A DNA stretch of 32,534 nucleotides, taken from contig JAYEPE010000299.1 in NCBI GenBank assembly GCA_034723735.1, positions 1-32,534 of the forward strand. The letters are read 5' to 3'. Within the stretch, counting starts at the first letter, position 1. Each line of letters starts with the position of its first letter. The stretch is from Campylobacterota bacterium. Its GTDB lineage: Bacteria; Campylobacterota; Campylobacteria; Campylobacterales; Sulfurimonadaceae. Made by a program: the position numbers and the translations under genes. The notes under the pieces were generated by a model. That model made no database searches and was not told where the DNA came from. It was given only the letters and a program-made list of their open reading frames with translations. Shown one piece after another: positions 24,933 to 32,311 of the stretch.

Positions 24933-25499
24933 ATGAAATATTTTAATAAAGAGACCGTTTTGTTATTGGTAGTGCTATTTATTGGACTGCTTTTGGTGCT
25001 AAAAACTGTTAAGTTTCCTACGTATGGGACGGTAAATGTTGCGATAATGCAACAAAAGGGTGCTATTAAAACGGTGGATACCCAACAAAAGCTCTCCTCC
25101 ACAAAACATATTTCAGTTGATAGTCTCAATTTCCTTGAATCACGGATTTTAGAACATCCAAATTTAGGAAAATTGGGATATACCAGTAATATCTTTTTGA
25201 AAGCTACGACTGAAATGAATGTTGAAACATCTGGAGAATATACTTTTTTTGTAACTTCTGATGATGGATTTCGACTTAAAATTGATGGAGTAGCTGTTTG
25301 TGAGCATCCAGGAGACCGTCCGATGAGAACAACGGTATGTAAGAAAATCCTCAATAAAAAGAGCCATCGTTTTGAACTTTTGTACTTTCAAGGGGGTGGA
25401 CCTATGGGCTTACATGTAAGTTATAAATTTCAAGGGGAATCATCTTCTCATTTTATTGGCGAGGCATCAAAAAATATGAGCTTTAAGGAGATTAAATGA
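24933..25499 (+). CDS. Membrane-anchored PA14-domain protein
   Basis: N-terminal TM LLLVVLFIGLLLVL, then the PA14 signature GEYTFFVTSDDGFRLKIDGVAV...HRFELLYFQGGG. ATG at 24933; the ORF-track TTG at 24906 is less likely. The stop overlaps the next start (ATGA). Confidence 0.7.
   Translation: MKYFNKETVLLLVVLFIGLLLVLKTVKFPTYGTVNVAIMQQKGAIKTVDTQQKLSSTKHISVDSLNFLESRILEHPNLGKLGYTSNIFLKATTEMNVETSGEYTFFVTSDDGFRLKIDGVAVCEHPGDRPMRTTVCKKILNKKSHRFELLYFQGGGPMGLHVSYKFQGESSSHFIGEASKNMSFKEIK
25409..25420. repeat. Iterated palindrome copy, CTTACATGTAAG (12/12)
   Basis: Inside the PA14 protein CDS, read as L-H-V-S. Confidence 0.95.
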
Positions 25500-26956
25500 T
25501 CAGTAGATTATCCTCAGAGCATAAAGAGCTTTTAACTTATATTTTTGCTGTTTTAATTATTGCTGCAAGCACATATATTTTTAATTACTATAACCCTGCA
25601 TCTGTCTTTTGGGATGAAAACTATCATATTGCATCAGCACAGAAATATCTTGCTGGCGTCATGTATATGGAGCCACATCCTCCTCTTGGCAAGCTTTTTA
25701 TTGCTCTAGGTGAACTGATTTTAAATCCTAATGAGGGGATAGATACAGCATATTTTTTAGATACAAATTATATAAAAAAATTTCCTGAAGGCTACTCTTT
25801 TGCGGGAATGAGACTATTTCCTACGCTTTTTGGAGGCGCTTCTGCTGCGCTGTTTTTCTTGATTTTGTATCGCTTTTCACGCCAAATGCAGTTGTCATTT
25901 CTTTTTACATCTTTTTATCTTTTTGCCAATGCTTTTATCCTTCAAAGTCGTTCTGCAATGCTTGAATCAACACAGATGTTTTTTATCTTTGCAGCGATTT
26001 TATGGTTTGCAATTATTTTTGATAAAGAACATAAATCTTATCGAGATTATTTTATTTTAGGTCTTTTTATTGGTTTGGCTACAGCGGTGAAGCTTAATGG
26101 ACTTATATTGATACTTCTGTATCCATTTTTATATTTTTACCGTGTAGAAGCATTAAGTATTTTCTTGCATGTAAAGCAATTTCTTTTGCAAGGGCTGACT
26201 GTAGTAGCAGGCTTGATACTTGTTTTTATGGCAGTATTTTATATGCATTTCACCTTAGCAGATACCATGGGCGTTAAGTCGTATAAGGCATCACCTGAAT
26301 ATAAACAGATTATTAAAGATAAGGCAACAGCTAACCCTCTACATTTTTCTGTAATGATGATGGATAATTTGAATTATATCAAAGACTATAGTAAAACAGT
26401 TCCACGATATAACCCCTGCAAAAAAGTAGAAAATGGTTCTTTAGCCGCGACATGGCCATTTGGAAACAAGAGTATTAATTATCGCTGGGGTAAAAAAGAT
26501 GGAAAAGTCAGCTATCTTTATTTACAGATAAATCCAATGATATGGTTTAGTGTTGTATTTGCAATGATTATGGCCTTTGCAATGATAATTTCAAAGTTTA
26601 TTTTTGGCTTACATGTAAAGGAGAAACGACTCTTTTATTTGATTAGTACTTTTAGTGCAATGTACGCTTCATATATGATTACGATGTTTAATATTGAACG
26701 TGTGATGTATCTATACCACTATTTTATTGCTCTATTTTTTGGTGTATTTGTACTTTTTCTACTGTTTAATTATCTATTTAAAGATGCAATTGAAAAAGAG
26801 AGTAAAGTACTTAATATCGCAGTGATTATATTGGTTCTTGAAGTGATCTACTGCTATTATTATTTTGCACCGTTTACCTATTATAAGCCACTTACAACGA
26901 TGGAGTTTTTTGATAGACAGTGGTTCGACTTTTGGAAGTTAAAGCCGATACTCTAA
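25496..26956 (+). CDS. GT-C glycosyltransferase of the PMT/GT39 (protein O-mannosyltransferase-like) type
   Basis: The first-loop motifs WDENYH (the DE catalytic motif; compare FDEVHF in Pmt proteins) and EPHPPLGKLFIALG (compare HPPLAK/HPPLGK) are followed by more than 10 TM helices. Confidence 0.7.
   Translation: MISRLSSEHKELLTYIFAVLIIAASTYIFNYYNPASVFWDENYHIASAQKYLAGVMYMEPHPPLGKLFIALGELILNPNEGIDTAYFLDTNYIKKFPEGYSFAGMRLFPTLFGGASAALFFLILYRFSRQMQLSFLFTSFYLFANAFILQSRSAMLESTQMFFIFAAILWFAIIFDKEHKSYRDYFILGLFIGLATAVKLNGLILILLYPFLYFYRVEALSIFLHVKQFLLQGLTVVAGLILVFMAVFYMHFTLADTMGVKSYKASPEYKQIIKDKATANPLHFSVMMMDNLNYIKDYSKTVPRYNPCKKVENGSLAATWPFGNKSINYRWGKKDGKVSYLYLQINPMIWFSVVFAMIMAFAMIISKFIFGLHVKEKRLFYLISTFSAMYASYMITMFNIERVMYLYHYFIALFFGVFVLFLLFNYLFKDAIEKESKVLNIAVIILVLEVIYCYYYFAPFTYYKPLTTMEFFDRQWFDFWKLKPIL
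26608..26619. repeat. Iterated palindrome copy, CTTACATGTAAA (10-mer exact)
   Basis: Inside the GT39-like CDS, read as L-H-V-K. Confidence 0.95.
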
Positions 26957-26957
26957 G

Positions 26958-27332
26958 ATGAGTCAAGTTACGAAATTTTTATTTCTTGGAGTGCTTTCAA
27001 CAGGAGTAGATTATCTAATGTACTCCTTGCTTATTTTGCTTTGTATTGACTATGTTATTGCGATTGTAGTAGGCTACAGCGCAGGTCTAATTGTTAATTA
27101 TCATATTGGACGTCAGTATATTTTTACCTCAGGGACAAAGTTAAAAAACACGCATCGTGAATTTATTGCGGTAGTTTTAATTGCTATTGTGGGAATGTTA
27201 TTAAATATAGCCATTGTGAAAGTATTAAGTTATTCTTTTTGGGATATCGACCCTTTGTATTCGCGAATTGCTGCAATTGGTTTTGTCTTTTTTTGGAACT
27301 ATTTTTTACGTAAAATTTTTATTTATCATTAA
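26958..27332 (+). CDS. gtrA: GtrA-family membrane protein (polyprenyl-phosphate-sugar translocation associated)
   Basis: 124 aa with 4 TM helices. The N-terminus FLFLGVLSTGVDYLMY and the C-terminus FFWNYFLRKIFIY are typical of GtrA-like proteins. Confidence 0.75.
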   Translation: MSQVTKFLFLGVLSTGVDYLMYSLLILLCIDYVIAIVVGYSAGLIVNYHIGRQYIFTSGTKLKNTHREFIAVVLIAIVGMLLNIAIVKVLSYSFWDIDPLYSRIAAIGFVFFWNYFLRKIFIYH

Positions 27333-31348: not shown

Positions 31349-31356
31349 AATGCTCC

Positions 31357-31911
31357 TTAGTGGTCATAATCACGAGTATCACTCGGAAGTAATTCAGAGT
31401 TATCAAAAAAAGCTGTTACATCTGAAAAAGATTTGCTTACTGCTACAGGTTTCATATATGGATCAAAAAGATAATATTTTTCATCATTTTCTACAGCATA
31501 GTGAGAACTACTTTTATTATTAAAAAGTGAAAACTTAAAACAGACATTATTGATAGCATGATTTTTATCTATTAGAGGTAAAAAAGTGATAGTACGAATC
31601 TGTCCAAAAGTGTCGGGAAAATAGATATTTGGAGAACTTGTAAATAATGAAAACCCCTTCTCATCAGCTTTTTTCCCATCAAGATAGACATGACACTCTT
31701 TACAAGGTTCTAAGCAGATAATTTCTGCTTTACGTTTATAGGGTAAATCAGCTAAAAAAGTTTTTATATTTTTCAGTGTGAGCTTATCTGTATTTGCAAG
31801 AGGGGGCTTTGTAAGCTTATGTACAAAAACTCCATATAAAATACCTATTAAAAGAACTACAATAAGTAGTTCAAAAAGAGTAAATGCCCTACTGTTTGAT
31901 ACAGTTGGCAT
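31357..31911 (-). CDS. Prepilin-type N-terminal methylation-motif protein (atypical pseudopilin)
   Basis: AFTLFELLIVVLLIGILYGV is a class III signal/methylation motif (Ala at -1, Glu at +5). ATG at 31911 gives a 9-aa leader; the ORF track extends to GTG 31959. The C-terminal domain has no recognisable family. Confidence 0.6.
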   Translation of the reverse strand: MPTVSNSRAFTLFELLIVVLLIGILYGVFVHKLTKPPLANTDKLTLKNIKTFLADLPYKRKAEIICLEPCKECHVYLDGKKADEKGFSLFTSSPNIYFPDTFGQIRTITFLPLIDKNHAINNVCFKFSLFNNKSSSHYAVENDEKYYLFDPYMKPVAVSKSFSDVTAFFDNSELLPSDTRDYDH

Positions 31912-32311
31912 AGGTGATGTCTTTGTTCTCTTTGGTTCCACCTTCTTTTCTATTAGCACCTAATGAGATAAGGTCAATACCATCTTCTGTCTGTATATAG
32001 ATATATGGAGTTTTCCATGGATCTTTAGGAACAATTCCATTTTCAAAATAAGCTGATGGTGAGTAACCAGGGTAGTCTTCAGGACTAGGGTTTTTAGATA
32101 AGGCATCAAGACCATGTTCTTGATCAGGATATCGCCCATTGTCGAGCCTAAACATATCAAGAGCATTTTTAATACTTTTCATCTGAATACAGACAAGATC
32201 TTGTTTTGCCTCTTCGCTTTTTCCGATAAGGCTAGGCATAACTAATGCCGCCAAGAGTCCTAAGATGATGATAACGATCATCAGTTCCATAAGTGAGAAT
32301 GCTTTTTTCAT
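31889..32311 (-). CDS. gspG: Type II secretion major pseudopilin
   Basis: MKKAFSLMELMIVIIILGLLAALVMP prepilin motif, plus the GspG core ALDMFRLDNGRYPDQEHGLDAL...PKDPWKTPYIY...LISLGANRKEGG. The SD AAAGGA lies upstream. Confidence 0.9.
   Translation of the reverse strand: MKKAFSLMELMIVIIILGLLAALVMPSLIGKSEEAKQDLVCIQMKSIKNALDMFRLDNGRYPDQEHGLDALSKNPSPEDYPGYSPSAYFENGIVPKDPWKTPYIYIQTEDGIDLISLGANRKEGGTKENKDITYANCIKQ

What the first reader, a model, noticed from the sequence alone, without database searches (positions are those of the whole stretch)
24933..32311. Candidate periplasmic glycosylation system (PA14 protein, PMT/GT39-like GT-C, GtrA, second GT-C, GtrB) wired into a pseudopilin/GspF operon
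The + strand operon runs from the PA14 membrane protein (24933-25499) through a GT-C with protein-O-mannosyltransferase hallmarks (WDENYH...HPPLGK; 25496-26956) and GtrA (26958-27332) to a 613-aa GT-C-like protein (27351-29192). Its stop overlaps, through a shared TTAA, the stop of a GtrB-type polyprenyl-phosphate glycosyltransferase (29189-30121). That GtrB gene is the last gene of the minus-strand operon gspG, pseudopilin-like gene, gspF, gtrB, with a 9-nt gap and its own SD after gspF. The parts list is complete for the classic lipid-carrier route: GT2 loads sugar onto undecaprenyl-P, GtrA assists flipping, and GT-C enzymes transfer the sugar in the periplasm. GT39/PMT-type enzymes are characteristic of eukaryotes and Actinobacteria and are unusual in this phylum, whose known protein glycosylation uses PglB/PglL-type enzymes. 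Co-transcription of the donor synthase with pseudopilin genes suggests that pseudopilins or secreted substrates may be the acceptors, by analogy with TfpW, a GT-C that glycosylates Pseudomonas pilin. The conventional alternatives, Gtr-type O-antigen/LOS modification or ArnT-like lipid A modification, cannot be excluded from sequence alone.
Basis: partly seen in the sequence, partly recalled or inferred. Interest (0 to 1): 0.7.

Follow-up and report, generated by a model that had tools for sequence, protein, structure and literature searches.

The report
PMT-like periplasmic glycosylation gene cluster
This stretch of a sulfur-oxidising bacterium's chromosome encodes a complete kit for attaching sugars to targets outside the inner membrane, built around an unstudied Gram-negative relative of the enzymes that add mannose to proteins in fungi, animals and tuberculosis bacteria, and paired with its own sugar-binding helper protein.

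Summary
The genes are real and laid out as described. The 486-aa protein belongs to the PMT/GT39 family by sequence, catalytic residues and predicted fold. The 613-aa protein is a GT-C enzyme with a built-in PA14-like domain. The GT2 is GtrB-type and GtrA is present, so a lipid-carrier, periplasmic glycosylation route is well supported.

Comparative genomics changes the emphasis. The conserved core is the PMT-like gene plus the small membrane-anchored PA14 lectin gene. They are adjacent and co-directional in 64 of 81 loci across several phyla. Other family members carry a fused carbohydrate-binding module instead. The window's GtrB type lies inside the PMT operon in other Campylobacterales. 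Its place after gspF is a Sulfurimonadaceae rearrangement. The 613-aa GT-C is a fast-varying add-on.

The secretion-gene neighbourhood recurs only in Campylobacterales and is not obligatory. Elsewhere, PMT modules often sit beside exported proteins with poly-serine linkers. In Kangiella, two LPMOs and a chitinase lie 21 nt upstream of gtrA-gtrB-PMT. The likeliest job is O-glycosylation of Ser/Thr-rich stretches of exported proteins, not specifically pseudopilins. A glycan or lipid acceptor is not excluded, and the sugar is unknown. This is an uncharacterised variant of a known kind of system.

The parts
24933..25499 (+). Membrane-anchored PA14 lectin-like protein (188 aa), the conserved partner of the PMT-like enzyme. 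It has an N-terminal TM helix and a periplasmic PA14 domain.
   Evidence: Pfam PA14, E 1e-7. A family profile hits solved PA14 sugar-binding domains at E 5e-12 to 3e-10. SDDGF (D110-D111) and YFQGxG align with the Ca2+/sugar site of MpPA14 (PMC8092209). The gene is adjacent to and co-directional with PMT in 64/81 loci, with gaps mostly -37 to +12 nt. Here it overlaps the PMT start by 4 nt.
25496..26956 (+). PMT/GT39-like GT-C glycosyltransferase (486 aa, no MIR domain): the conserved catalytic core.
   Evidence: Pfam PMT 1.8e-23 and PMT_4TMC 1e-19. The profile hits yeast Pmt1 at 5.7e-29. D40-E41, E157, R402 and Y405 are invariant and correspond to MtPMT D74/E75, D176, R441 and Y444. The AF2 model has pLDDT 82.6 and pTM 0.88. 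The top 7 PDB fold matches are all Pmt4/Pmt1/Pmt2, at TM 0.73-0.78.
26958..27332 (+). GtrA-family small membrane protein (124 aa), the proposed flippase for the polyprenyl-phosphate sugar.
   Evidence: Pfam GtrA_DPMS_TM, 8e-19. It follows PMT/PA14 in 11 loci. In locus L105 an LPG_synthase_TM protein precedes each of the two PA14 genes, and no GtrA was called there.
27351..29192 (+). Second GT-C glycosyltransferase (613 aa). Its layout is TM1, a periplasmic PA14-like beta-sandwich (about residues 29-145), TM2, then the GT-C core with an invariant QHD...H loop (D218). It is the variable element of the locus.
   Evidence: It has no Pfam hit itself. Only 54 homologues were found; some hit PMT_2 or DUF2142, and the L001 variant hits PMT. 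The AF2 model has pLDDT 79.8. Foldseek matches Emb, PglB/STT3, ALG, ArnT and Pmt4, and the N-domain matches PA14 lectins. hhalign to the PA14 partner family gives E 2e-5. It is only 22-49% identical between genomes whose PMT is 63-77% identical.
29189..30121 (-). GtrB-type GT2 polyprenyl-phosphate glycosyltransferase (310 aa), the donor synthase. It is the last gene of the minus-strand string.
   Evidence: Full-length match to solved GtrB sll0501 at 1.1e-62, ArnC at 7e-36, and archaeal Dol-P-Man synthase only at 5e-14. Best NCBIfam hit is PgfS at 3e-71, below the cutoff. Orthologues at 57-63% identity sit in PMT operons in other Campylobacterales and in Kangiella.
30131..31348 (-). gspF (T2SS inner-membrane platform). 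It neighbours the glycosylation genes and is probably co-transcribed with the GT2. Functional membership in the glycosylation system is not shown.
   Evidence: Pfam T2SSF 3e-43. TIGR02120 GspF scores 293 bits, below the cutoff of 424. The gap to the GT2 is 9 nt. gspF followed by a GT2 on the same strand recurs in L002, L006, L008, L081, L086 and, with a different GT2 type, L085.
31357..31959 (-). Prepilin-type (pseudopilin-like) protein of about 185-200 aa. Neighbour.
   Evidence: N_methyl motif, 5.6e-5. It is conserved between gspG and gspF in related loci.
31889..32311 (-). gspG major pseudopilin. Neighbour.
   Evidence: TIGR01710 scores 141 bits against a cutoff of 88.85; Pfam T2SSG 1.4e-26.
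32341..32534 (-). 3' end of a further minus-strand gene upstream of gspG. It is a homologue of a 200-230 aa membrane-anchored protein found upstream of gspG in L001, L002 and L008, and it runs off the window.
   Evidence: Translation and comparison by eye with L001:14861-15556. It appears to need a frame change near 32440-32455.

Best explanation
This is a three-component, lipid-carrier-dependent periplasmic glycosylation system. Its conserved core is a two-gene module: a PMT/GT39-like GT-C enzyme and a membrane-anchored PA14 lectin.

Proposed steps:
1. The GtrB-type GT2 loads a hexose-type sugar from a nucleotide sugar onto undecaprenyl phosphate at the cytoplasmic face. This is inferred from homology.
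2. GtrA helps move the lipid-linked sugar to the periplasmic face. This is inferred.
3. The PMT-like enzyme transfers the sugar. Its active-site residues sit in the predicted first periplasmic loop (D40/E41), together with E157 and R402-x2-Y405. The most likely acceptors are Ser/Thr hydroxyls in Ser/Thr-rich linkers or disordered stretches of proteins exported through Sec. These include secretion-system cargo and lipoproteins. This is inferred from family membership and gene neighbourhoods.
4. The PA14 protein is translationally coupled to the enzyme. It acts as a carbohydrate-binding accessory subunit, analogous in role to the MIR domain of eukaryotic PMTs. This is inference only.
5. The 613-aa GT-C has its own PA14-like domain and uses the same or a related lipid-linked donor. 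It either extends or decorates the glycan, or modifies a second acceptor. It is the strain-variable part of the locus.

The adjacency to gspG/pseudopilin/gspF reflects a Campylobacterales-specific neighbourhood, and here probably shared transcription of the donor synthase. It is compatible with glycosylation of secreted cargo. It is not evidence that pseudopilins are the targets. The sugar is unknown. The enzyme should not be called a mannosyltransferase, because the donor synthase resembles GtrB/PgfS far more than Dol-P-Man synthase.
For: Gene order and tight spacing:
- The layout and overlaps are as listed in the observation check.

PMT membership:
- Both Pfam domains score above their cutoffs.
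- Yeast Pmt1 is hit at 5.7e-29 over both halves.
- The four residues shown by mutagenesis to be essential in MtPMT are invariant here, with D176 replaced by Glu.
- The EL4 hairpin W320-x8-Y329-x13-L343-x3-P347, proposed to bind the acceptor peptide in MtPMT, is invariant.
- All of the top 7 fold matches are PMTs, at TM 0.73-0.78. Other GT-Cs reach at most 0.47.

Donor synthase:
- The GT2 matches solved GtrB at 1e-62.
- GT2 and GtrA genes adjoin PMT in Campylobacterales, Kangiella, Patescibacteria and Spirochaetales.

PA14 partnership:
- 64/81 loci have the pair, always on the same strand and mostly overlapping.
- The DcisD and QG sugar-site motifs are invariant.
- Other family members carry a C-terminal NPCBM carbohydrate-binding module (E about 1e-30) or N-terminal extensions.
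- P0085 shows by eye the same TM / domain / TM prefix as the 613-aa protein; this was not modelled.

Protein acceptor:
- Every characterised family member O-glycosylates protein Ser/Thr (PMC12331936, PMC12586580).
- GtrB plus a GT-C glycosylates Ser/Thr-rich disordered regions in streptococci (PMC12041528).
- 36 ORFs with at least 60% Ser/Thr over 25 aa occur in 26/80 PMT loci, against 0 of 185 ORFs in PMT-less GspF loci (Fisher p 0.003).
- 8 of the 36 lie within 500 bp of the module, against 2.9 expected (p 0.007).
- These neighbours include LPMO10-CBM5/12 (two), a GH18 chitinase, pectate lyases and poly-Ser lipoproteins. In Kangiella the chitinase gene ends 21 nt before gtrA-gtrB-PMT on the same strand.
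- In L015, gspG-pseudopilin-gspF, PMT-PA14, the GT2 and a poly-Ser lipoprotein form one same-strand string with gaps of at most 73 nt.
Against: - No experiment bears on this family.
- The window itself contains no Ser/Thr-rich protein, so the acceptor in this organism is not identified.
- Lectin and CBM modules are typical of enzymes that act on polysaccharides, for example the Emb proteins.
- Some loci (L105) place the PMT-like gene among several other GT-Cs, an aminotransferase and a radical-SAM enzyme. That looks like glycan assembly.
- Poly-serine linkers are common genome-wide in Cellvibrionaceae-type degraders (PMC3124978). Whole-genome background frequencies could not be computed, and many of the loci are phylogenetically related.
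- The second catalytic acid is Glu, not Asp. D176E nearly abolishes activity in MtPMT.
- L001 and L003 have a different GT2 (38% identity) next to a 72-77% identical PMT. The donor-enzyme pairing is therefore not fixed.
- Physical interaction of PA14 with the enzyme was not tested.
Confidence: 0.5

Rival explanations
1. The acceptor is a glycan or lipid, not protein. Both GT-C enzymes would decorate LOS/O-antigen, lipid A, capsule or a periplasmic glucan, in the manner of Gtr serotype conversion or ArnC/ArnT. The PA14 and PA14-like domains would bind the polysaccharide acceptor.
For: - Three-component systems characterised in Gram-negative bacteria modify O-antigens and other glycans (PMC11127046).
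- PA14, NPCBM and PA14-like modules are carbohydrate binders.
- The 613-aa GT-C and its GT2 vary between close relatives like serotype cassettes.
- In L003 the same slot holds a sulfatase-family membrane enzyme fused to PA14.
- L105 embeds the module in a multi-GT-C, sugar-modification locus.
- Homologues of the 613-aa protein hit PMT_2, the ArnT-type Pfam family.
Against: - The PMT-like enzyme keeps the PMT catalytic set and the peptide-facing hairpin, and its fold matches only PMTs closely.
- No LOS, O-antigen or capsule genes lie in the window.
- Ser/Thr-rich exported proteins are over-represented next to the module.
- The GT2 is closer to GtrB and PgfS than to ArnC.
Confidence: 0.28
2. One reading: the system glycosylates the T2SS pseudopilins (GspG and/or the 200-aa prepilin-like protein), by analogy with TfpW and Pseudomonas pilin. 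This would explain why gtrB is transcribed with them.
For: - gtrB follows gspF by 9 nt.
- A gspF-GT2 same-strand pair recurs in at least 7 loci, once with a different GT2 type.
- The PMT cluster and the gsp cluster are neighbours in 10 of 17 Campylobacterota loci, in three different arrangements. One of these is a single same-strand string in L015.
- One Saccharibacteria locus has a pilC-like gene convergent on the PMT gene.
Against: - The module occurs without gsp genes in about 50 loci of other phyla and in several Campylobacterota loci (L005, L007, L020, L101).
- gspG-pseudopilin-gspF occurs without glycosylation genes at 73% and about 50% GspF identity.
- In other Campylobacterales the same GT2 orthologue sits in the PMT operon, not the gsp operon.
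- Neither pseudopilin has a Ser/Thr-rich tract.
- In the TfpW case the transferase gene sits directly beside the pilin gene (my own knowledge, not checked here). That is not the arrangement here.
Confidence: 0.08
3. There is no joint system. The PMT-PA14 pair, the GtrA/613-aa genes and the GT2 are independent genes that happen to be neighbours, and the GT2 serves some unrelated pathway.
For: - Many PMT-PA14 pairs have no GT2 or GtrA within 8-10 kb.
- The GT2 is on the opposite strand here.
Against: - GT2 and/or GtrA adjoin the PMT gene in at least four phyla, often in one operon.
- Within the window the four plus-strand genes are separated by -4, 1 and 18 nt.
Confidence: 0.05

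Closest known systems
Actinobacterial and eukaryotic protein O-mannosyltransferases (GT39: M. tuberculosis Rv1002c/MtPMT with Ppm1; yeast Pmt1/2/4)
   Same: - Same Pfam domains (PMT and PMT_4TMC).
- Same fold (TM 0.73-0.78).
- Same first-loop DE motif, Rx2Y motif and EL4 hairpin.
- Polyprenyl-phosphate-monosaccharide donor.
- Active site on the extracytoplasmic face.
- Like the bacterial PMTs, it has no MIR domain.

   Different: - Only about 13-17% identical to the solved fungal PMT structures in the fold alignments.
- Not an orthologue of actinobacterial Pmt: the NCBIfam equivalog scores 18.7 bits against a cutoff of 800.
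- The second catalytic acid is Glu.
- It is paired with a separate PA14 lectin gene, or fused to NPCBM, rather than carrying a MIR domain.
- The donor synthase is GtrB-type, not Ppm1/DPM1-type, so the sugar is probably not mannose.
- The hosts are Gram-negative or CPR bacteria.
Streptococcal GtrB/PgtC2 and Pgf (PgfS/PgfM1) protein O-glycosylation of Ser/Thr-rich disordered regions (PMC12041528)
   Same: - A GtrB-type Und-P-sugar synthase plus a GT-C enzyme acting outside the membrane on Ser/Thr-rich regions of exported proteins.
- The window GT2's best NCBIfam hit is PgfS (3e-71, below cutoff).
- The pgf genes also sit beside their substrate genes.

   Different: - Those GT-Cs are YfhO-type, not PMT-type.
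- They have no lectin partner.
- The hosts are Gram-positive.
Gtr three-component O-antigen glucosylation (GtrA, GtrB, type-specific GT-C) of Shigella/Salmonella phages
   Same: - GtrA, GtrB and a GT-C are all present.
- The second GT-C and the GT2 vary between close relatives like a type-specific cassette.
(PMC11127046)
   Different: - The conserved GT-C here is PMT-family.
- There are two GT-Cs.
- No prophage context was seen among the window's genes by Pfam.
- The acceptor is unknown.
ArnC/ArnT lipid A aminoarabinose modification (GT83/PMT_2)
   Same: - A GT2 with a C-terminal membrane hairpin homologous to ArnC (7e-36).
- Homologues of the 613-aa GT-C hit PMT_2, and the fold search lists ArnT.

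   Different: - No arnA, arnB or arnD-type genes are present.
- The GT2 is much closer to GtrB.
- The 613-aa protein itself has no PMT_2 hit and carries an extra PA14-like domain.
TfpW, the GT-C that arabinosylates Pseudomonas group IV pilin (known to me from the literature; not checked here)
   Same: A GT-C enzyme using a polyprenyl-phosphate monosaccharide to modify a type IV pilin-class protein in the periplasm.
   Different: - tfpW lies directly next to its pilin gene.
- Here the GT-Cs are on the other strand, and the link to pseudopilins is not conserved outside one order.
Mycobacterial Emb arabinosyltransferases (GT-C enzymes with periplasmic carbohydrate-binding modules)
   Same: They are the best fold matches of the 613-aa protein (E 4e-6). 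Both combine a GT-C core with a periplasmic beta-sandwich sugar-binding-type domain.
   Different: - In the 613-aa protein the beta-sandwich is N-terminal, between two TM helices, and is PA14-like.
- There is no sequence-level similarity.

Membership tests
PMT / GT39 protein O-mannosyltransferase family (486-aa protein) | Matches both Pfam family models (PMT, PF02366, and PMT_4TMC, PF16192) above the curated cutoffs | tested here: met
   83.9 bits against 22.7, and 71.3 bits against 32.4. All 120 listed homologues carry both domains.
PMT / GT39 protein O-mannosyltransferase family (486-aa protein) | Catalytic Asp-Glu motif in the first extracytoplasmic loop | tested here: met
   D40-E41 in WDENYH are invariant. 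They align with Pmt1 D77-E78 and correspond to MtPMT D74-E75. The motif follows TM1 (H10-28 in the model). The periplasmic side is inferred from the basic N-terminus.
PMT / GT39 protein O-mannosyltransferase family (486-aa protein) | Second conserved acidic residue in loop 2 (MtPMT D176 / Pmt1 D189) and the Rx2Y/F motif in loop 5 (MtPMT R441, Y444) | tested here: met
   E157 (Glu instead of Asp, invariant), R402 and Y405 (both invariant) occupy the aligned positions. The Asp-to-Glu change is a family-specific difference.
PMT / GT39 protein O-mannosyltransferase family (486-aa protein) | PMT-type GT-C fold | tested here: met
   AF2 pLDDT 82.6, pTM 0.88. Foldseek ranks 1-7 are Pmt4, Pmt2 and Pmt1, with E 3e-13 to 2e-8 and TM 0.73-0.78. 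The next GT-Cs reach at most 0.47.
PMT / GT39 protein O-mannosyltransferase family (486-aa protein) | Lumenal MIR domain in loop 5 (eukaryotic PMTs only) | tested here: not met
   No MIR hit. The loop is about 90 aa. Actinobacterial PMTs also lack MIR (PMC12331936), so this does not exclude family membership.
PMT / GT39 protein O-mannosyltransferase family (486-aa protein) | Orthology to the characterised actinobacterial Pmt (NCBIfam NF058602 equivalog) | tested here: not met
   18.7 bits against a cutoff of 800, over 80 residues.
PMT / GT39 protein O-mannosyltransferase family (486-aa protein) | Transfers mannose from polyprenyl-P-mannose to protein Ser/Thr | not testable with these tools
   Indirect evidence only. 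Ser/Thr-tract proteins are enriched beside the module. The linked donor synthase is GtrB/PgfS-like rather than Dol-P-Man-synthase-like, so mannose is doubtful.
PMT / GT39 protein O-mannosyltransferase family (486-aa protein) | CAZy / dbCAN assignment to GT39 | not tested
   No CAZy HMM library was available. The Pfam PMT model was used as a proxy.
Three-component (GtrA/GtrB/GT-C) periplasmic glycosylation system | GtrB-type GT2 polyprenyl-phosphate glycosyltransferase with a C-terminal membrane hairpin | tested here: met
   Residues 2-307 align to solved GtrB sll0501 at E 1.1e-62.
Three-component (GtrA/GtrB/GT-C) periplasmic glycosylation system | GtrA-family small membrane protein | tested here: met
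   PF04138, 8.4e-19, full length.
Three-component (GtrA/GtrB/GT-C) periplasmic glycosylation system | GT-C transferase encoded with them, with the association conserved | tested here: met
   Two GT-Cs are present in the window. GT2 and/or GtrA adjoin PMT in Campylobacterales, Kangiella, Patescibacteria, Spirochaetales and unclassified metagenome loci.
Three-component (GtrA/GtrB/GT-C) periplasmic glycosylation system | Acceptor is an O-antigen or other cell-surface glycan | not testable with these tools
   No LOS or O-antigen genes lie in the window. The acceptor is unknown.
GT-C superfamily (613-aa protein) | Multi-span GT-C fold with an acidic residue in the first extracytoplasmic loop of the core | tested here: met
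   AF2 pLDDT 79.8. Foldseek matches Emb, PglB, STT3, ALG, ArnT and Pmt4 at probability 1.0. Q216-H217-D218 and H222 are invariant in the loop after the third helix. Homologues hit PMT_2, and the L001 variant hits PMT above its cutoff.
ArnT / GT83 (613-aa protein) | Match to the PMT_2 (PF13231) model and an arn-operon context | tested here: inconclusive
   The window protein has no Pfam hit, but 20 of its 54 homologues do. No arn genes are nearby.
PA14 carbohydrate-binding domain (188-aa protein) | PA14 beta-sandwich with the DcisD Ca2+/sugar-binding motif | tested here: met
   Pfam 32.2 bits against a cutoff of 24. D110-D111 and Q153-G154 are invariant or nearly so, and align with MpPA14 Asp110-Asp111 and Gln156-Gly157 (PMC8092209). 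Sugar binding itself was not tested.
Type II secretion system | GspG major pseudopilin and GspF platform protein | tested here: met
   GspG equivalog is above its cutoff at 141 bits. GspF is the best hit but below its cutoff, at 293 against 424 bits. In more distant relatives the cluster is longer and includes an ORF resembling the large ORF of the pilC-containing gene string of L010. These ORFs were not scanned against any family library.

The most novel reading that the evidence does not exclude
The PMT-like enzyme and its PA14 partner form a two-subunit protein O-glycosyltransferase. This would be the first GT39-type protein O-glycosylation pathway in Gram-negative bacteria. A detachable lectin subunit (or a fused NPCBM module) would take the role of the eukaryotic MIR domain. 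The system would glycosylate poly-Ser/Thr linkers of Sec-exported, T2SS-secreted enzymes and lipoproteins. In Sulfurimonadaceae the donor synthase would be co-expressed with the secretion machinery for that reason.
Probability: 0.25. Interest if true: 0.8.

Novelty: new variant of a known kind. Interest (0 to 1): 0.6.

Why it matters
Protein O-mannosylation-type chemistry by GT39 enzymes is textbook biology for eukaryotes and Actinobacteria. In those organisms it controls protein stability, secretion and virulence.

A distinct and compact GT39 branch in Campylobacterota, Cellvibrionaceae, Spirochaetota, Patescibacteria and others would extend that chemistry to diderm bacteria. This branch always travels with a sugar-binding module and often with GtrB/GtrA.

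It would also offer a simple two-gene system for studying how PMTs use an accessory lectin-like domain.

If the acceptors are the poly-serine linkers of secreted polysaccharide-degrading enzymes, two things follow:
- It would explain how such linkers could resist proteolysis. This is my inference, by analogy with the protective role of O-glycans on streptococcal disordered regions (PMC12041528).
- It would matter for heterologous production of these enzymes.

If instead the acceptor is a glycan, the family would be a new GT-C activity inside a family thought to be protein-specific. Either outcome is informative.

Tried and rejected
1. Sequence search of the 613-aa protein and its family profile against PDB gave nothing meaningful. 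hhalign against the PMT family gave only 4.6% probability. The GT-C call therefore rests on the structure model and on homologues' Pfam hits.

2. The promoter and terminator scan of 24300-32534 found 41 promoter-like and 4 terminator-like sites. That is no more than in shuffled sequence, so it cannot decide whether gtrB has its own promoter.

3. Literature searches for GT39 plus PA14, for 'phospholipid carrier-dependent glycosyltransferase', for bacterial GT39 phylogeny, and for Cellvibrio linker glycosylation found no description of this family.

4. The context of the PMT-PA14 pair in other phyla showed no third conserved gene. Neighbours include a TonB receptor, GGDEF, DUF349, FG-GAP and a GH5 cellulase.

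5. Mobile-element idea. A RepO/DnaD-like gene lies next to the cluster here, and Rep3 plus a ParA-like gene (ParA-like by eye only) lie next to it in Nitratiruptor-type loci. No tRNA genes were found anywhere in the window, so none could mark an island boundary; repeats were not searched. The rest of the window is housekeeping chromosome. This was not pursued.

6. Modelling a PA14-PMT complex was considered and dropped. The structure tool returns no interface metrics and would refuse concatenated sequences.

7. Pseudopilins as acceptors. No Ser/Thr-rich tract occurs in GspG or the 200-aa protein, and gsp clusters occur without glycosylation genes. The idea was demoted to a low-probability rival.

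Full report
**1. Observation**

The ORF map confirms every gene and junction in the finding. On the plus strand:
- The PA14 gene (24933-25499) overlaps the start of the 486-aa gene (25496-26956) by 4 nt.
- GtrA (26958-27332) follows after 1 nt.
- The 613-aa gene (27351-29192) follows after 18 nt.

Its stop shares TTAA (29189-29192) with the stop of the convergent GT2 gene, 29189-30121. That GT2 lies 9 nt downstream of gspF, preceded by AGGA. Upstream are the 200-aa prepilin-like gene and gspG. One more gene upstream of gspG runs off the window end.

Pfam and NCBIfam give these results:

| Gene | Hit |
|---|---|
| PA14 protein | PA14, 1e-7 |
| 486-aa protein | PMT 1.8e-23 and PMT_4TMC 1e-19, both above gathering score |
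| GtrA | 8e-19 |
| GT2 | Glycos_transf_2, 9e-28 |
| gspF | T2SSF, 3e-43 |
| gspG | GspG equivalog above cutoff |

The 613-aa protein has no hit in either library. The rest of the window is ordinary chromosome (RNase J, KsgA, ThyX, HtrA, thioredoxin and others). The nearest genomes are Sulfurimonadaceae MAGs.

**2. The 486-aa protein is a PMT-family enzyme**

- A 14-sequence profile hits yeast Pmt1, Pmt2 and Pmt4 and the Chaetomium Pmt4 (best E 5.7e-29). It aligns both halves and skips the MIR domain.
- The residues shown by mutagenesis to be essential in M. tuberculosis PMT are D74, D176, R441 and Y444 (PMC12331936). They correspond to D40, E157, R402 and Y405 here, and all four are invariant in the alignment. 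The second acid is Glu rather than Asp.
- The EL4 hairpin signature that the same paper links to acceptor-peptide recognition is present and invariant: W320-x8-Y329-x13-L343-x3-P347.
- The AlphaFold model has pLDDT 82.6 and pTM 0.88. Its seven best PDB matches are all PMTs, at TM 0.73-0.78. Other GT-Cs reach at most 0.47.
- It is not an orthologue of actinobacterial Pmt: 18.7 bits against a cutoff of 800.

The family is small. There are 283 clusters at E<=1e-30 among 1.84 billion representatives, and 323 loci in 185,579 species genomes. These loci lie in Campylobacterota, Cellvibrionaceae and other Gammaproteobacteria, Spirochaetota/Brevinematales, Patescibacteria, Bdellovibrionales and Pontiella.

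**3. The conserved core is PMT plus PA14**

Clustering all ORFs of 80 fetched loci plus the window shows the small PA14 gene next to the PMT gene in 64 of 81 loci. The two are always on the same strand, and most gaps fall between -37 and +12 nt. The order is PA14 then PMT in Sulfurimonadaceae, and PMT then PA14 elsewhere.

The partner family is strikingly uniform: 186-190 aa, with an N-terminal TM helix. Its invariant SDDGF and YFQGxG align with the DcisD motif (Asp110-Asp111) and Gln156-Gly157. Those residues bind Ca2+ and sugar in the Marinomonas PA14 lectin (PMC8092209).

Other members of the same PMT branch lack a separate partner but carry other additions:
- a C-terminal NPCBM carbohydrate-binding module (P0355, P0362, P0388; E about 1e-30), or
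- N-terminal extensions of 180-270 aa. P0085 shows by eye a TM / domain / TM prefix like that of the 613-aa protein; this was not modelled.

A sugar-binding-type module, in cis or in trans, is therefore a family trait. The obvious functional analogy is the MIR domain of eukaryotic PMTs. In Pmt4 that domain serves as a second substrate-recognition site (PMC12586580). Physical association of PA14 with the enzyme is inference.

**4. The 613-aa protein**

Only 54 homologues were found, nearly all in Campylobacterota-type metagenomes. Twenty of them hit PMT_2, and the L001 variant hits PMT above its cutoff.

The AlphaFold model (pLDDT 79.8) shows TM1, a beta-sandwich (residues 29-145), TM2 and a GT-C core. 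Foldseek matches Emb, PglB/STT3, ALG, ArnT and Pmt4. For the N-domain it matches PA14 lectins. Profile-profile comparison with the PA14 partner family gives E 2e-5. An invariant QHD...H loop (D218) follows the third helix.

This gene is the most variable in the locus. It is 22-49% identical between genomes whose PMT is 63-77% and whose GspF is 71-85% identical. The same slot between gtrA and gspF holds different content in relatives:
- another GT2 plus another GT-C in L001 and L003;
- a sulfatase-family enzyme fused to PA14 in L003;
- a second GtrA plus an FAD oxidoreductase in L002.

**5. The donor synthase and the gsp link**

The GT2 aligns end to end with solved GtrB at 1e-62. It matches ArnC less well (7e-36) and Dol-P-Man synthase only over its N-terminal domain (5e-14). 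The sugar is therefore unknown and probably not mannose.

Two GT2 lineages occur:
- The window type lies after gspF in the window, L002, L006, L008, L081 and L086. It lies inside a PMT-PA14-GtrA-GT2 operon in L011, L018, L023 and L037, downstream of PMT-PA14 on the same strand in L015, and in GtrA-GT2-PMT in Kangiella.
- A second type (36-40% identical) sits in the plus-strand operon in L001 and L003, after gspF in L085, and next to PMT in a spirochaete and in Patescibacteria.

The GT2 therefore belongs functionally with the PMT module. Its position as the last gene of the gsp string is a Sulfurimonadaceae arrangement.

The PMT cluster neighbours gspG-pseudopilin-gspF in 10 of 17 Campylobacterota loci, in three arrangements. 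One of them, L015, is a single same-strand string. It has no such neighbour in about 50 loci from other phyla, with one exception: the Saccharibacteria locus L010, which has a convergent pilC/gspF-like gene. It also has none in L005, L007, L020 or L101.

Conversely, gsp clusters at 73% GspF identity are followed by a gene I read as a class A PBP (GT51 motif, by eye). More distant ones, at about 50%, sit in longer same-strand gene strings with no glycosylation genes. The link is real as a neighbourhood but is neither universal nor obligatory.

**6. What is the acceptor?**

No tool can show this. Three lines favour proteins:
- All characterised PMT-family enzymes act on protein Ser/Thr, and the peptide-facing features are conserved here (section 2).
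- GtrB plus a GT-C is an experimentally shown route for O-glycosylating Ser/Thr-rich disordered regions in streptococci (PMC12041528).
- ORFs with at least 60% Ser/Thr over 25 residues occur 36 times in 1.14 Mb of PMT loci (26 of 80 loci). They occur 0 times among 185 ORFs of PMT-less GspF loci (Fisher p 0.003). Eight lie within 500 bp of the module, against 2.9 expected (p 0.007).

Pfam shows that many of these neighbours are exported multidomain enzymes with poly-Ser linkers:
- In Kangiella, two LPMO10-CBM5/12 proteins and a CBM5/12-GH18 chitinase lie on the same strand. The chitinase gene ends 21 nt before gtrA-gtrB-PMT.
- Large pectate lyases sit beside the module in a spirochaete and in Pseudomarimonas.
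- Poly-Ser lipoproteins sit beside it in other Campylobacterales.

From general knowledge, such enzymes are typical T2SS cargo in Gram-negative bacteria. That would make sense of the gsp neighbourhood without invoking pseudopilins.

Caveats:
- Poly-Ser linkers are common genome-wide in Cellvibrionaceae-type degraders (PMC3124978).
- The loci are not phylogenetically independent.
- The control set is small.
- The window itself has no Ser/Thr-tract protein.

The glycan-acceptor alternative keeps real weight. Its support comes from the lectin and CBM modules, the cassette-like variation, and locus L105. That locus has GT87, PMT_2, two LPG_synthase_TM-PA14 pairs, DegT and a radical-SAM enzyme.

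**7. Comparison and verdict**

The system works like a three-component periplasmic glycosylation pathway, and its main transferase is a member of the PMT family. It differs from every characterised PMT system in four ways:
- the host group;
- a GtrB-type donor synthase;
- the Asp-to-Glu change at the second catalytic acid;
- an obligatory separate PA14 lectin (or fused NPCBM).

I found no description of this branch in the searchable literature. A 2025 paper still confines bacterial protein O-mannosylation to actinobacteria.

My probabilities are:

| Reading | Probability |
|---|---|
| Lipid-carrier mechanism | about 0.85 |
| Protein Ser/Thr acceptors | about 0.5 |
| Glycan or lipid acceptor | about 0.28 |
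| Pseudopilins specifically | about 0.08 |

This is a new variant of a known kind. It is moderately to highly interesting and directly testable, because cultured Cellvibrio, Gilvimarinus and Marinimicrobium strains carry the pair.

Noticed in passing
window 32341-32534 (- strand): The gene upstream of gspG is a homologue of L001:14861-15556. It seems to need a frame change near 32440-32455 to match its homologue's C-terminus. This could be a frameshift, an assembly error or a real variant.
   Followed up: partly
window 23404-24862 (- strand): A RepO/DnaD-like protein (PHROG DnaD-like helicase loader, 8e-8) and a 183-aa unknown protein sit divergently upstream of the PA14 gene. The pair is conserved at the same place in L001-L004 and L008. 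In Nitratiruptor-type loci (L018, L037) a Rep3-type initiator and a gene that looks ParA-like by eye (not scanned) lie between the PMT cluster and gspF. This may be a trace of a mobile origin for the module.
   Followed up: partly
L003:12657-15020 (- strand): A 787-aa membrane protein with a sulfatase (alkaline-phosphatase superfamily) domain and a C-terminal PA14 domain resembling the PMT partner. It occupies the variable slot between the second GT-C and gspF.
   Followed up: partly
L105 / L106 (metagenome contigs carrying P0072), 1-13500: A large locus with GT87, PMT_2, a radical-SAM/B12 enzyme, a DegT aminotransferase, a convergent GT2, and two LPG_synthase_TM + PA14 gene pairs. One of these pairs directly precedes the PMT-like gene. 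No GtrA gene was called in this locus.
   Followed up: no
L015:12536-13537, L025:5628-6359, L020:1553-5164 and L020:5695-6267: Ser-rich exported proteins and lipoproteins near PMT modules in Campylobacterales share an LPN[FL]G motif, at or near the C-terminus in three of the four. This may be a sorting or recognition signal. It is unexplained.
   Followed up: no
L002:10275-11846 and L070:12725-14300: An FAD-dependent oxidoreductase (Amino_oxidase/NAD_binding_8, about 523 aa) sits next to a 613-aa-type GT-C both in a Sulfurimonadaceae genome and in a Pontiella genome. This hints at a donor-sugar-modifying step for some cassette variants.
   Followed up: no
window 19078-23407 (+ strand): A three-gene set: a LolA-like/DUF1329 protein, a 409-aa protein with no Pfam hit, and an MMPL/RND transporter. 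It is conserved upstream of the cluster in L002 and L003 and is probably a lipid or lipoprotein export module unrelated to the finding.
   Followed up: no
window 3857-5330 (- strand): An IS200/Y1-type transposase gene overlaps a Fic/DOC-family gene. The local G+C content is lowest here, at about 0.30.
   Followed up: no
window 5618-10482 (+ strand): Two DUF4178 proteins are followed by a 458-aa spermidine-synthase-domain protein and a PLP decarboxylase. This looks like a polyamine-related cluster.
   Followed up: no
window 31357-31959 vs 31889-32311: The mechanical ORF of the 200-aa prepilin-like gene overlaps gspG by 71 nt. The conserved prepilin motif (AFTLFE) begins at residue 25, so the real start is probably the internal ATG (M17).
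   Followed up: partly
L010:2840-5840: In a Saccharibacteria genome the PMT-like gene is convergent on a pilC/gspF-like gene. This is the only non-Campylobacterota locus with such a neighbour.
   Followed up: no
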